Positions 32,201-64,000 of a DNA stretch of 64,000 nt are shown one piece after another. Each line of letters opens with the position of its first letter. Position 1 is the first letter of the stretch. Origin of the DNA: Longimicrobiales bacterium (lineage in GTDB: Bacteria; Gemmatimonadota; Gemmatimonadetes; Longimicrobiales; Gaopeijiaceae); assembly GCA_963422615.1 (NCBI GenBank), contig OY730414.1:1116001-1180000 (forward strand). Direction: 5' to 3'. Made by a program: the position numbers.

Positions 32201-35200
32201 GCCGCGGATTCGGGCATCTTCCGCAAGAGAGTTTCCGACACCCTGGAGGAGCTGGCCTCGGAAGGCATCCTCATGAAGGTGGCGGGCGAATACCGCATCC
32301 AGACCACCGCGGGGGCGGACTGGGATCGGGCCTTCCGCGAGCGGCGCACGGCCCTTGGCCAGAGCCCCATCGAAGAAGCCACGCGCCGGGGGCAGCTCCT
32401 GCGCGCCGCCGTCGAAGACGTCATCAAGGGGATCCGGCTTCGCCACGGAGACTCCAAGGTACGCCGCAAACTGGGCTTGTACGTGGACAAGGAGCCCGAC
32501 GGGAGCGGGAGTGGGGCCGTGCCCGTCTGGTTGCGCGACGCGTGGTCGTGCCGGTGGTCCGAGGTGCGGGGCGAAGCGAGGCGGAGGGGGTTGGAGGACC
32601 CCGTGATTCACGTACATCTCCCCAAGCGGAGCGCCGCGGAGCTCCGGCGTCACATTCTGGACGAAGCTGCGGCGGGGCTGGTTCTGGACGAGCGGGGGGT
32701 CCCGACTTCCGCCGAAGGGCGGGAGGCGTACGACGCGATGAAGAGCCGGCGCGCCGCCGCCCAGGCGGCCAGGGACGGGATCGTCCGCCAGACCCTGCTT
32801 GCCGCCCGGGTCCTTCAGGGTGGGGGCCACGAACTTTACCCCACCGACTTGCACGCAAAGATCGAAGAAGGGGCGGGGGCGTCTCTGATACGCCTCTTCC
32901 CCCGTTTCCCGGAGGCGGACCACCGCGCCTGGGGCGTTGCCCTGAAACGGGCCCGGCAGGGTTCGGACACGCCCTTCCGGAGCGTGGACTGGGACGGGCC
33001 GACGGAGGAGCACCCGGTGGCGAAGGAGACGCTGAAGACGATCGGAACCGGCAAGAGGGGAAGTGCAATCCGCACGTCCCTCGAGGCGCCACCGTACGGT
33101 TGGCCGCGGGACGCCATGGACGCGGCCCTGGTCTCTCTGCACCGGAGCGGCCACCTCCACGCCGAACGGGACGGCAACCCGGTTCTGTCCGGCGCCTTGG
33201 ACCAGACCGCCATCCCACGGACCACCTTCCGGCCGGAACGCATCCGGCTGACGACCAGGGAGCGGATCGCCCTCCGGGGGCTCTTCCAGGAGGCCGGCTT
33301 CCACGTAAAGCCCGGCCGGGAAGAGGAGACGGGCGCCGAGTTCCTGGGCAGGCTGCGGCGCTTGGCGGAGGAGGCCGGGGGCGAAGCGCCTCTGCCGGAG
33401 CGGCCGGACACCGGGTTGGTGGACGACCTCTCGCGGTTGTCGGGGAAGGAGCAGCTGGCGGCGATCTTCCAAGCGAAGGAGGAGCTTTCGCAAGCGTTCG
33501 GCGCATGGACCCAATTGGGCGAATGGGTGAGAGAGCGGGTACCTGCGTGGGAGCTGGCGGGCGCGCTACGCCGTCACGGGGAGGGTCTGGACGAGGCGAA
33601 GGCGGTGGCGACCGAGCTCGATGCGGTCCTGGAGCAGCGTTCTCTGCTGGACGCCGCCGACCCGGTCACGCCCTGCGTGGATACGCTGACGAGGGCTCTT
33701 CGCGCGGCGCTCAGCCGGTTGCGCGACGCTTTCGGAGTGGCGGTGAGGGAAGCGACGGAACGGCTGGCTGGGGACGTCATGTGGCAGAAGCTGGACCGAC
33801 CCACACAGCAGGAAATCCTCGCGGGCGTCGGGCTGGTGGCACCCGGGCCCTTATCCGTGGCGACGCCCGAAGAGCTACGACAGACGCTGGACCGGCGCGG
33901 GTTGCGGGGATGGCAGGCGGTGACCGATGCCGTTCCGGCCCGCGAGGCGAAGGCGCTGGAAGCGGCAGCCAAGCGGTCGGAGGGCCCGCCCTTGGTCATC
34001 GTCCGTGTGCGGCGGGGGTCCCTAGAGGACGAGAGGGCCGTGCGGGAGTGGGTGGAGGAGCACGAGAGGAAGTTGCTAGCGGCGGTTCAAGAAGGTGGAG
34101 TGGCATCGGTGACCTGAGGTGCCGGGAGAACGAGGCGTCTCAAATAAGTTCAACCGTCAGCTCGTTGCCTCTTCGTCAGGCGGATTCCCCTTCGTCACAG
34201 CGTTTGTTCGCCCGCTCATTCTGCGGCTCGGAGCCGCGGCTGCCGAAGTAGAAGCCGAGGATGGGTCCCGCGAACGCACTCATCGTCGTAACGACAAGCT
34301 CGAAGCTGTCTCCAAGGGCGGAAGCGCCGAACGCCACGACGACGACGAACGAGCCCACGCTCGTAAGCGCCAGCATACTCCGCACCGATCCCTGCGGCAG
34401 GTTGAGGCCCTTCGCCGGCGCGGGATTCGACAGCTTTTTTGCTTGCTGCGTCGCCAGCAACGGGAGACCCACCAATACGATGAGTAGAAGCACGCCTTGC
34501 GCCAACGCGAACCCGATCCAGCCCATATTCCAATTCCTGATTGTGAGTGGTTACGGAACAGCTTGAGGTTGCCAACCTACAGTCCGGTGACCCGACTGGC
34601 CACCACTGGGGCAATTCGGACAGACTTCCGGGCAGAAACGCTGCCGATAAGGGGGCTTCTGAATCCGGCCCGCCCCCCCTACACCTCAGGTCGCAGCCCG
34701 ATGCCGGAAGGGCTACCTTGCCCGCAAAAAGAACCCTGTCCGAACAAGTTACTCCATGAGCGCCACCCTCCCCCCGGACCTCCGCTCCAACTTCGCCAAG
34801 ACCATCCAGAAAGCCGGGCACGTCGGCGAAGCGGGTGCTGGGCAGGCCCTGGCGTCGTTGGCGGTGGACCGTGGCCAGCCCTACCCCTCCATGTCCCACG
34901 CCGAAAGGACGCTTCGCAACCAGCTCCGCGCCCGGGGACGCCAGCTCGGGGACCGACGGGACCGCAAGACCCGCCGCCAGGGTATTGATCAGCTTGCCCA
35001 CGAAGTCGCGTACGCGCACTGGCACCGGATGCTCTTTGCCCGCTTCCTGGCCGAAAACGGACTCCTCACCGAACCGGAATCGGGGGTTGCCGTCTCCCTG
35101 GAGGAGTGCGGAGAGCTGGCTCGGGAGCAGGAAGAGGACCCGTGGACGCTGGCGGGACGCTTCGCCGTACACATGCTGCCGGCCATCTTCCGACCCCACG

Positions 35201-62200: not shown

Positions 62201-64000
62201 GCCGATCCTTCTCCAAAGGGTTGTGGCGGTATCCTGCCCAGGACGTGTAGCGTATCCAGTTCTCGCTCAGTCGCTTGGGGCAGAGGACAAGGACCCGTTC
62301 GTTGCGCAGCTCGAAGAACTTGATCACGGCCAGGGCGGTCAGCGTCTTTCCCAGCCCGACGCTGTCGGCGACAATGCAGCCGTTGTGCGTGAGCAGGCGG
62401 TTGATCGCGCTCACGGCGCCGTCCTTCTGGAAGGTGAAGAGCATCTTCCAGACGGCGGTGTCGTGAAGATGAACCGCCTCGACCAGTCCGTCCCGGACTT
62501 GCCGTTCGGCGATCCGGTTTTCAAGGATGTGGAAGAGCGTCTTGTAGTAGACGAACTCCGGTGAGTAGTTTCTGCCGAGGCGCTCGAGGGCATCCAGGAC
62601 GTCCTGTTTCGCGTCCCGGGTCAGGCGCGTGTCGTGCCACAAGTCGTCGAACCAGCGAAGAAGTCCTGCGCGTTCGGCTTCGTCCCGGACCACCAGATTC
62701 AGTTCGATATTGGGGCTGGCGCCCAGGCCGAGACCCCTGCGGGTGAAGTTGGAGCTGCCCAGGAGGGCTGCGGTCTCCCCGGCGCCCCGAGCGACATGGT
62801 AGAGCCTTCCGTGAAGGAAGTTGATCTTTTCTACCGTGCGGATGTCTGCCCGCTTCCGGATCCAGTTCGCGCACGCGCGGGCGAGGGGCTTTTGAGTCAG
62901 CGCCTGCTTCAGCTCCAACCCGGCGGCGTCCGTTAGCCTGAATGCCTTGGCAACATCGTCGGTGGGGTCCGGCGCGCCCACACCGCGAGGGTCGCCATAG
63001 AGAAAACGCAAGTGACTTATGCCATCCAGCTCGGCGCGCAAGTCGGCGTAGGCGTAGATGGTGAAGTAGGCCGACACCACCGACATCCGCGCTCCGGGGT
63101 CGATTTCTCGGCGCAGAAAGTTCTCCACCTTTCGCACCCGGTTGTCAATGATCGCCGTGGTTTCCGGAGCGGGGTCCAGGGGAGTCGATGTGTGCACTTC
63201 ACTCACTTTCCGGGAGAGACTGCCAATGCGTGAGGACTGCCTTCTCCGATAGCTCCGCCAAGTTCGTCCGGTAGCCGGAATGGCCGTTCCCGGTAATGGC
63301 TCCGATGCTCTTCAGCCACAACACACAGGCGGAAACCTGGTACTTGGGAACCGCCGCAACTCCCCGATGGATGTCATCTACCCTGAATCGATTCCCGTAC
63401 TGACCGTGTTCCGTGACCGTTTGCACAACGAGTCGAACCGTATTCCACGGCGTACGATGAAAGTACTCTTCACCCGTTTTCCTTCCCCATCCGACCTTGA
63501 CGAGCTTTTGGCCGTTCCTTTCGAATCGAGGGTACGTTGGTAGGACAGTCGACGGTCCTCTTCCGTCGGAGTGCGACTCATCTTGACCGGTCCCCTCGCC
63601 ATCATCCCCACCGGGGCCCTCGATTAGACCCTGGGTCAAGATCGCGATTGCGCTCGATATCTTGGCAGCAATCCGGTCCATCGCGGCGACTTCGGCGTGT
63701 TCGTGCTTCTCCAGGTTGGCGCTAATGAGTGCCTGGAGGGCCTTTCTTGCTTCCACGAGGATGCGATAAGCTTCGTTGACGTCGACTTTCACCTTGGAAG
63801 TATCTCCCGGTCGGACGTTTGCGCCTGGCCGCGTCGGGGGACGATGCGGATCCGGTCCGTGCAAACAAATGGACTCCGCCCGATACGATTAGCCTCGCCT
63901 GCGTCGGTCCGAAAGATCTTCCCAGGTGGGTTGGCGTTGGCGGGTTGGTGCATGTGGTTGGCCCCGTAGGCTCACTTCTCACACGAGGAGCCTTGGCTGC

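What a model noticed while it worked through the whole genome (the two positions that open the first line are those of the whole stretch)
34756..64000. Hypermutable G/C tracts and tetranucleotide repeats sit inside eight restriction/BREX/DISARM-type genes
Nearly all long simple-sequence repeats of this genome lie inside or at the 5' end of defence genes: poly-G/C tracts of 11-21 nt in a type III mod (g00022, 30288), BREX pglX (g00917/918, 1153011, where the gene is split by a frameshift exactly at the tract), a type IIG enzyme (g00932, 1173122), a Type ISP enzyme (g00945/946, 1194773, 1195080, 1199852), an HSDR_N nuclease (g00969, 1237525) and a SAM methyltransferase split at the tract (g01314/315, 1658011), and (TTGC)10 / (TGTC)11 in a second type III mod (g00580, 730518) and a DrmMI-like methylase (g01726, 2157113). 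I read these as contingency loci: slipped-strand mispairing switches each immune system on and off independently, giving a pop [...]
Evidence so far: Regex scan of the whole contig: homopolymers >=13 nt: 10 found vs 1.4 expected from base composition (>=15 nt: 9 vs 0.15); 118 runs >=8 nt in all. Non-homopolymer SSRs (unit 2-9, >=4-7 copies): only 3 in the genome, 2 of them in defence methylases. Context: of the 10 tracts >=13 nt, 5 are inside ORFs of R-M genes (g00022 at 78% of the ORF, g00932 74%, g00945 90% and 96%, g00969 69%), 1 at the g01314/g01315 methyltransferase junction; the other 4 are intergenic: 227 nt upstream of a TonB-dependent receptor (C17, 1222612), next to a DUF4411/M78 pair (G21, 195635), next to a Gp49/HTH pair (G19, 2361882) and upstream of the ATP-synthase operon (C19, 1263940). 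pglX: g00917 and g00918 match PADLOC The finding spans contig positions 1150756 to 1200210; this window holds only 1150756 to 1180000 of it. [...]
(Added by a program. Inside this text positions count along the whole contig: contig position 1,116,001 is position 1 of the stretch shown here. "Call 12" and the like, gene names such as g00115 and contig names such as C1 are that model's own, and its searches are not shown. The text may have been shortened before it was handed on; [...] marks where a part breaks off. The agent that wrote the report below was given it as the finding of a first reader that could run no searches.)

Follow-up and report, generated by a model that had tools for sequence, protein, structure and literature searches.

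The report
Repeat-driven five-way restriction specificity switch
Slippery DNA repeats in this bacterium's anti-virus methylase genes look like real genetic switches; most are ordinary on/off switches, but one restriction enzyme appears to use two repeats to choose, by reading frame, among five alternative versions of a DNA-reading loop.

Summary
The tracts are real and concentrated in restriction-modification genes: 7 of 12 G/C runs of 11 or more, and both long tetramer repeats. Several labels need correcting. The split SAM methyltransferase is not a DNA methylase, and the 'intergenic' G19 splits a glycosyltransferase gene. In the window, pglX (G11, out of frame) and the type IIG gene (C21, in frame) look like known ON/OFF switches. 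Among PglX homologues, 26 of 50 with this allele stop just after the G run, against 0 of 69 others. The Type ISP gene, just beyond the window, is not an ON/OFF switch. Its C-terminal guide subdomain is a separate upstream gene, and the main chain ends in five alternative Loop VI recognition cassettes in different frames. Tract 1 selects cassette 1, 2 or read-through; tract 2 then selects 3, 4 or 5, so these tracts give no OFF state. 114 of 117 homologous chains end in such a cassette, and 71 of 74 linkers hide another cassette out of frame. Contigs of two runs give 12 and 15 where the assembly has 13. Activity and motifs are untested.

The parts
29317..44210 (+). Type 1 BREX locus: brxA, brxB, brxC, pglX (split), AlbA_2 gene, pglZ type B, brxL
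   Evidence: Pfam, PADLOC and NCBIfam hits
34756..37032 (+). pglX 5' ORF (758 aa): methyltransferase and the first part of the target recognition domain; stops 7 codons after the tract start
   Evidence: PADLOC PglX model positions 2-704 of 1125; translation
37011..37021 (+). G11 ON/OFF tract in the PglX recognition domain; 10 or 13 G give a 1214/1215-aa protein, so the assembled state is OFF
   Evidence: same site G9 in G005, G10 in G298, G215, G294; homologue tally
37022..38401 (+). pglX 3' part in the other frame
   Evidence: PADLOC PglX model positions 714-1120 of 1125
56177..59887 (-). Type IIG enzyme gene (1236 aa; Eco57I + TaqI_C), Cj0031-like layout, ON in the assembly
57122..57142 (-). 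C21 tract (poly-Pro, aa 916) between methyltransferase and specificity domains; other lengths truncate 62-71 aa later; C6 at the same site in G294
59862..63206 (-). PLD + SNF2 helicase gene upstream of the IIG gene. (The Type ISP locus, the main result, lies 14-20 kb beyond the window's end, contig 1194352-1200210; its parts are listed in section 5 of the full report.)

Best explanation
The long repeats are slipped-strand contingency loci of two kinds. (A) ON/OFF switches: pglX G11, type IIG C21, type III mod G15 and (GCAA)10, HSDR_N C16, plus surface genes (GT2, SAM methyltransferase, TonB receptor). A change of length truncates the protein. (B) Frame-multiplexed specificity switches. In the Type ISP locus the conserved end-of-core and guide part is made as a separate upstream subunit, which leaves the variable hairpin + Loop VI segment at the very end of the main chain. 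Five versions of that segment lie in tandem in different frames, and the DNA between them is kept free of stops in the frames that must be read through. Tract 1 picks cassette 1, cassette 2 or read-through; tract 2 picks cassette 3, 4 or 5; skipped cassettes are translated out of frame as a disordered linker. The population thus carries up to five enzymes expected to differ at the base pair read by Loop VI (+3 in LlaGI/LlaBIII). Shown: layout, frames, family conservation, length differences between contigs. Inferred: slippage in vivo, association of guide and main chain, activity, different motifs, anti-phage benefit.
For: All 30 length pairs tested end in one of the five cassettes. The four read-through paths (277 codons) are stop-free; chance 0.015 to 0.0002 at this gene's own off-frame stop rates. 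The cassette aligns with LlaBIII/LlaGI through Loop VI, which reads +3 (PMC4872093, section 18). 0 of 119 closest main chains carry the guide; 445 stand-alone guide hits, 109 of the best 120 being 215-260 aa. 114 of 117 chains end in a cassette, 77 of the 80 long tails through a linker; 75 of 117 carry a repeat-derived peptide of several unit types. 71 of 74 linkers encode a cassette in another frame, above their own shuffles. Members of one 90% cluster end in different cassettes. Tract 1 is 12 in X4 and 15 in X3 with no substitutions in those contigs. pglX: 26 of 50 vs 0 of 69 truncated at the G run; none of 80 distant pglX loci has a G/C run of 9 or more in the gene.
Against: No raw read was laid (X6: 0 reads), so a mixture within one population is unseen. 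The X3 difference rests on one contig of depth 3.85; X3 and X4 share a study and species label and may include the assembly's source; X5 shows no listed change at depth 5.3. No second DNA locus of the split Type ISP was obtained, so family evidence is from proteins. Three of 117 chains end without a cassette. Cassettes 4 and 5 depart from the consensus and may be decayed. AlphaFold placed cassette 3 only at pLDDT about 50 and did not fold the cassette of a homologue. MutS and MutL are present, so slippage may be slower than in species that lack them. The G15 of the first type III mod is absent from all 10 homologues bracketed.
Confidence: 0.75

Rival explanations
1. The cassette array is a silent archive that is used by recombination (deletion, excision-reintegration or gene conversion between the shared tract flanks and cassette starts). 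Only the cassette directly behind Loop V is functional, and out-of-frame states are OFF.
For: The two tracts share a 21-nt repeat and cassette starts are alike. First cassettes differ between close homologues, so cassettes do get exchanged over time. A 40-300-aa linker inside the recognition core may not be tolerated, and the models do not show that it is.
Against: It does not explain why 77 of 80 long tails reach a complete in-frame cassette and stop right after it, nor the stop-free read-through frames. No recombinase gene was found among the ORFs scanned in the locus. No joint within the array in X3, X4 or X5 contigs.
Confidence: 0.12
2. All tracts are plain ON/OFF switches; the extra cassettes are leftovers of tandem duplication.
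For: Fits pglX, IIG, both mod genes and HSDR_N. In the DrmMI-like gene the alternative frames end in stops before the C-terminal part.
Against: The Type ISP has no frame without a cassette. The layout is kept across a family at 50-57% identity with many different repeat units. The DrmMI-like three-cassette layout recurs in G005 and in three G215 paralogues with other repeat units, and a repeat stands at the same site in G187.
Confidence: 0.08
3. Tract lengths, and so the ON/OFF states, are sequencing or assembly errors at homopolymers, and the long tracts are neutral.
For: Two frameshifts in this assembly lie at short runs, not at long tracts (DrmMI-like gene near 2159140, TonB receptor near 1223990). 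Homopolymer lengths from contigs are error-prone. The truncated PglX proteins are skewed to one frame (22 to 4, self included, by my reading).
Against: Errors do not create runs of 13-21 in R-M genes, keep a G run at one site across genera, or put 4-, 7- and 8-base repeats at one site. X3 and X4 contigs show no substitutions over the long pieces laid on the 8.5 kb.
Confidence: 0.05

Closest known systems
Helicobacter pylori Type IIG JHP1272 (Hpy99XIV) and HP1353-HP1354 (HpyAXVI); PMC3936762, passages read
   Same: Two poly-C tracts in the recognition region; a frameshift changes specificity by adding a C-terminal recognition module.
   Different: There the first tract is ON/OFF and the second gives two specificities by appending a module. 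Here all frames of both tracts end in a cassette (five states), skipped cassettes are read out of frame, and the constant C-terminal part is a separate gene.
NgoAV and other hsdS genes with repeats between TRDs; PMC7383803, passages read
   Same: Repeat length switches specificity rather than expression; the enzyme stays active.
   Different: Two states (full-length or truncated/extended HsdS) in Type I; no cassettes in alternative frames.
Type ISP enzymes LlaGI and LlaBIII (PDB 5FFJ, 4XQK); PMC4872093, passages and section 18 read
   Same: Domain order, catalytic motifs, Loop V and Loop VI, guide subdomain.
   Different: They are single polypeptides with one Loop VI. Here the guide is a separate upstream gene and Loop VI is present five times.
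pglX G-tract of Streptomyces coelicolor Pgl (BREX type 2); PMC4365076, passages read, (Sumby and Smith 2003 seen only as cited there; the type 2 label is recalled)
   Same: A G run in pglX switches the system by expansion or contraction.
   Different: Here a type 1 BREX with PglZ type B; the run is G9-G11 in one recognition allele shared across genera; switching not measured.
Campylobacter jejuni cj0031 Type IIG; PMC4889913, passages read
   Same: About 1240 aa, homopolymer at about 70% of the gene, with conserved domains on both sides; absent from some homologues.
   Different: C21 instead of G9; a PLD-SNF2 helicase gene upstream; not tested.
C-terminal phase variation in Helicobacter canadensis; PMC2823697, passages read
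   Same: Late tracts change the C-terminal sequence instead of switching off.
   Different: Mostly a few residues; no functional cassettes and no R-M genes in the passages read.

Membership tests
Type ISP R-M enzymes | Mrr nuclease, SF2 helicase, coupler, gamma adenine methyltransferase and TRD in this order | tested here: met
   Pfam Mrr_cat_2, ResIII, Helicase_C, ISP_coupler, Type_ISP_C; motifs present; profile covers LlaBIII 20-1364
Type ISP R-M enzymes | Single polypeptide including the guide subdomain | tested here: not met
   Guide is a separate upstream ORF; 0 of 119 closest chains carry it. Works like a Type ISP; file as a split variant.
Type ISP R-M enzymes | ATP-dependent translocation and cleavage; one-strand methylation | not testable with these tools
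   no assay
SSR phase-variable (contingency) genes | Long repeat with a unit not divisible by three inside the reading frame | tested here: met
SSR phase-variable (contingency) genes | Length differs between close relatives or within a population | tested here: inconclusive
SSR phase-variable (contingency) genes | High-frequency reversible switching with a phenotype | not testable with these tools
   no culture or read series
BREX type 1 | brxA, brxB, brxC, pglX, pglZ, brxL in one locus | tested here: met
   NF033441 and NF033450 above cut-off
BREX type 1 | Intact PglX above the NF033452 cut-off | tested here: inconclusive
   Halves score 240.8 and 47.2 against 500; PADLOC PglX models match both halves strongly; gene is split in the assembly
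Type IIG (Cj0031-like) | One long chain with adenine methyltransferase and TaqI-like specificity domain | tested here: met
   the nuclease site was not checked
DISARM class I | DrmMI with DrmD, DrmA, DrmB and DrmC (gene list recalled) | tested here: inconclusive
   DrmMI-like and DrmD-like hits, NF038317 336.9 against cut-off 610; no DrmC-like gene among the ORFs scanned in that locus. Called 'DrmMI-like' only.
DNA methyltransferase (gene at contig 1657663-1658522) | Amino- or C5-methyltransferase family match | tested here: not met
   Only Methyltransf_11/23/25 and weak mad2 hits; none at 1e-12; none in NCBIfam

The most novel reading that the evidence does not exclude
A widespread family of two-subunit Type ISP enzymes has rearranged its gene so that a base-reading loop is C-terminal, and uses nested simple repeats as a ternary decision tree over three overlapping reading frames. 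Every state is an active enzyme with a different target, so a clonal population diversifies its restriction specificity without a recombinase and without switching defence off. A related three-frame cassette design in DrmMI-like methylases, and repeats of many different units at the same site, suggest repeated invention in host-associated uncultured bacteria.
Probability: 0.62. Interest if true: 0.85.

Novelty: new variant of a known kind. Interest (0 to 1): 0.72.

Why it matters
Known repeat switches in R-M genes give ON/OFF or two specificities. A recombinase-free five-state switch built from overlapping frames would be a new way to diversify immunity within a clone. It would also supply a natural library of interchangeable Loop VI modules, a direct test of the recognition code at position +3, for which the section of PMC4872093 that I read predicts no code. 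It shows that gene callers and repeat surveys can misread such loci as 'in frame' or 'pseudogene'. The pglX result extends G-tract switching from Streptomyces Pgl to one allele lineage of type 1 BREX.

Tried and rejected
Raw-read run X6 gave 0 reads; the tool skipped tract 2. A second DNA locus of the split ISP was not found: JGI metagenomes gave one 36% hit, not examined; viral contigs none; own phylum 8 of 400 other genomes matched at 142-224 bits against 347, and the 7 loci inspected have the normal order; five other genomes gave fused or weak hits; 0 of 351 genomes of the phylum of G604. AlphaFold: the native C-terminal 562 aa had mean pLDDT 60.7 with three low-confidence strands in cassette 3 and matched LlaGI, DrdV and LlaBIII; a homologue's cassette was below 50; neither model is used as support. 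The complex prediction for guide plus main chain never ran, so binding is untested. My first idea, that the upstream guide reflects an excised-circle or shufflon intermediate, was dropped. Loss of mismatch repair was rejected. The promoter scan found nothing. Rfam: no match in the window. One search had a script error and was redone. Poly-G counts over 61 genomes were not used, because many come from fragmented assemblies. R-M targeting is not general in the group: G215 11 of 22 tracts by tblastn (12 with Pfam), G005 3 of 7, G298 0 of 12 (1 with Pfam), G289 0 of 15, G009 0 of 5 (one G215 tract of 23 was dropped by my script). Paper search was uninformative. No supplements were read; those of the REBASE surveys could list such loci.
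Full report
1. Observation. The window holds two long runs, G11 at 37011 and G21 at 57122, besides a G9 in a transketolase gene. The whole contig (2,574,459 bases, about 64% G+C) has 12 G/C runs of 11 or more and no A/T run above 9. Run lengths fall geometrically from 5 to 9; extrapolation gives 0.05 runs of 13 or more, and 10 are seen. Seven of the 12 lie in MTase or REase genes (P 4e-8 against a hand-drawn 3.5% defence footprint); runs of 7-8 show no such bias (9 of 442, 15.5 expected). Both tetramer repeats of 10 or more copies lie in methylase genes. Five further DNA methylase genes exist; four (type I hsdM, two type II, one HmaB/DUF1156-like) carry no G/C run of 7 or more, and the C5 gene was missing from that run scan.

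2. Corrections. The gene split at 1658011 is a class I SAM methyltransferase without a DNA-methylase match; 18 or 21 G give 285-286 aa. The G19 at 2361882 splits a GT2 glycosyltransferase whose start lies upstream of the run (17 or 20 give 322-323 aa). A G10 is in frame in the 5' end of a TonB receptor gene, and C17 lies upstream of another. So the repeat set has two arms, defence and cell surface. G215 shows the same: about half its tracts are in R-M genes and several precede a family of Ig-like surface genes. The organism is probably Gemmatimonadota (3 of the 4 named PglX homologues); this is inference. A sponge habitat is suggested only by the name Candidatus Spongiisocius among guide homologues.

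3. pglX (window). The locus is a type 1 BREX. G11 ends the protein at 758 aa; 10 or 13 G give 1214 or 1215 aa. The run lies about 140 residues past the end of the methyltransferase alignment to Salmonella PglX, so within the recognition domain as delimited in PMC11341690 (passages); that placement is extrapolated. Of 119 homologues (51-62% identity), 50 share this allele's motif and 26 of them end within 40 residues of it; none of the other 69 does (Fisher P 1e-12, kin not independent). At DNA level the same site is G9 and out of frame in G005, G10 and in frame in G298, G10 and out of frame in G215, and G10 followed by unrelated sequence in G294; three G215 paralogues have C16, C22 and C16 at a second site, two out of frame. 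None of 80 distant pglX loci has a G/C run of 9 or more in the gene. This is the Streptomyces pglX mechanism (PMC4365076, passages) in another BREX type.

4. Other ON/OFF candidates. The IIG C21 encodes a poly-Pro linker before the TaqI-like domain; other lengths truncate. The layout matches cj0031 (PMC4889913, passages); the one homologue bracketed of three has C6 there. The mod G15, mod (GCAA)10 and HSDR_N C16 are in frame and truncate when shifted. The G15 is absent from the 10 bracketed homologues of 11. No homologue test was run for the last two.

5. The Type ISP locus, 14-20 kb beyond the window, minus strand, contig coordinates: guide gene 1200210-1199257 (317 aa) with an in-frame G11 at 1199852-1199862; main gene from 1199257; tract 1 (C13) 1195080-1195092; cassette 1 1195031-1194918; cassette 2 1194927-1194805; tract 2 (C20) 1194773-1194792; cassette 3 1194721-1194611; cassette 4 1194620-1194495; cassette 5 1194504-1194352. 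Pfam puts the first part of Type_ISP_C near the end of the main ORF and the last part in the ORF upstream. The upstream stop overlaps the main start. Contigs of X3 and X4 run through this junction without a difference, so the order is not a misassembly. A fused relative aligns the cassette segment with LlaBIII at about 1335-1370 (my count), and a profile of the split family covers LlaBIII to 1364. That is the hairpin plus Loop VI, whose residues read position +3; the guide does not read bases (PMC4872093, passages and section 18). Enumeration of 6 x 5 length pairs gave five end states and no other: tract 1 of 11 or 14 gives cassette 1, 12 or 15 cassette 2, 13 or 16 read-through; with 13, tract 2 of 20 gives cassette 3, 18 or 21 cassette 4, 19 or 22 cassette 5. 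The assembled 1548-aa ORF is the cassette-3 state. The read-through paths total 277 codons without a stop, where the gene body has off-frame stops at 1.5-3.0% per codon. The G11 sits in an insertion peculiar to this guide and truncates it when shifted: a possible master ON/OFF.

6. The family. The stand-alone guide has 445 hits among 4153 candidates of 169-541 aa; of the best 120 (self included) 109 are 215-260 aa and none holds a cassette; named rows are Acidimicrobiia, Ca. Spongiisocius, Ca. Dadabacteria and an unclassified bacterium. The main chain was searched with residues 950-1392, which exclude the tail. None of 119 scored hits has the guide. Of 117 with a locatable Loop V (self included), 114 end in a cassette: 37 directly (tails of this short class built the model) and 77 of the other 80 through a linker. 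Repeat-derived peptides occur 84 times in 16,566 tail residues against 34 in 138,656 body residues, from poly-G, poly-C and dinucleotide runs; longer units also occur. For 74 linkers of 40 aa or more I summed, over synonymous codons, the likelihood of a cassette in frame +1 or +2: median 17.2 against -2.3 in shuffles; 71 beat their own four shuffles and 67 beat every shuffle. Members of single 90% clusters end in different cassettes. Eleven contig lengths are shared between guide and main hits, an indirect sign of linkage. Relatives in the genome's own phylum have only normal-order Type ISP in the loci inspected, so the split form was probably acquired sideways (inference).

7. Variation. Laid on this locus, the X4 contig has 12 at tract 1 (depth 94.7) and the X3 contig 15 (depth 3.85), against 13 in the assembly; both put cassette 2 in frame. 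X5 shows no listed change at low depth, the G11 of the guide is unchanged in all three, tract 2 was skipped, and the raw-read run gave nothing. X3 and X4 share a study and may not be independent of the assembly. This is suggestive, not proof.

8. DrmMI-like gene (contig 2156221-2160677). (GACA)11 is followed by three versions of one recognition segment in two frames, and G10 by two versions of another. The first layout recurs in G005 and three G215 paralogues with 7-, 8- and longer units, and a repeat stands at that site in G187; five more distant homologues have one segment and no repeat. Here the alternative frames stop before the C-terminal part, so they would need a restarted second chain; a methionine lies just behind the stop after the G10 cassette. 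This copy is also frameshifted near 2159140 at short runs, by error or decay. I rate this switch as likely but less clean.

9. Mechanism and status. Shown: anatomy, frames, conservation, contig-level length differences. Inferred from established slipped-strand behaviour (own knowledge and the cited papers): reversible switching. Inferred from the LlaGI and LlaBIII structures: change of the +3 base. Untested: subunit binding, tolerance of the linker, activity. MutS and MutL are present. A change of specificity exposes unmethylated host sites; how the cell survives this is open.

10. Known and new. ON/OFF repeats in mod, hsd, IIG and pglX genes are known (the type III survey PMC5909438 seen only as a listing). 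Frameshift-driven specificity change is known in two-state form (PMC3936762; NgoAV in PMC7383803). I found no paper on a split Type ISP or on cassettes in three frames in searches, nor in the passages read of a 2025 review (PMC12707154); the library lacks most subscription papers and I read no supplements. Unchecked notes of this scan describe similar designs in other genomes; I saw them after and do not count them as support.

11. Verdict. Observation confirmed; interpretation partly supported. The general claim is a new member of a known kind. The Type ISP locus is a new variant: a probable five-state, recombinase-free specificity switch. Interest 0.72.

Noticed in passing
window 18578-29304 (+): Four-gene cluster upstream of BREX with SspF/DndF-like, mad7-like (weak), DndH-like and MutS_V-domain genes; probably a further defence module.
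   Followed up: no
window 44168-50735: A 1374-aa gene (-) without Pfam or PADLOC hit resembles NACHT/DUF8371 clusters in the Atlas (score 0.99); next to it a PDC-S01 ATPase gene and an HNH gene.
   Followed up: partly
window 34756-38401: PADLOC holds two PglX models of 731 and 389 positions that match the two halves of this split gene, suggesting the same split among the genomes used to build them.
   Followed up: no
L011:8039-9009 (contig 2361039-2362009, -): GT2 glycosyltransferase split by C19 near its 5' end: a likely surface-glycan switch.
   Followed up: partly
L002:8635 (contig 195635) and L008:7940 (contig 1263940): G21 directly behind the stop codon of a TrkA-domain gene, and C19 between a beta-propeller gene and the ATP synthase operon; no role found.
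   Followed up: no
L009:12628-15664 (-): Zorya type II genes (zorA, probable zorB, zorE) about 4 kb from the split SAM methyltransferase.
   Followed up: no
L192, L193, L196, L199, L200, L202, L204, L208 (G215): Eight paralogous Ig-like/carboxypeptidase-regulatory-domain surface genes, each with a G/C run of 11-37 just upstream.
   Followed up: no
L183 (G298): Three tandem PMT_2 glycosyltransferase-like genes, each with a C run of 11-26 at or near the 5' end.
   Followed up: no
L005:4630-4665: Short high-depth contigs in X3 and X4 match part of cassette 3 but run on into other sequence: other organisms in those samples may share the cassette.
   Followed up: no
L006:9872-12725 (contig 1222872-1225725): TonB receptor gene behind the C17 run is split by a frameshift near 1223990 that is not at a long run.
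   Followed up: no
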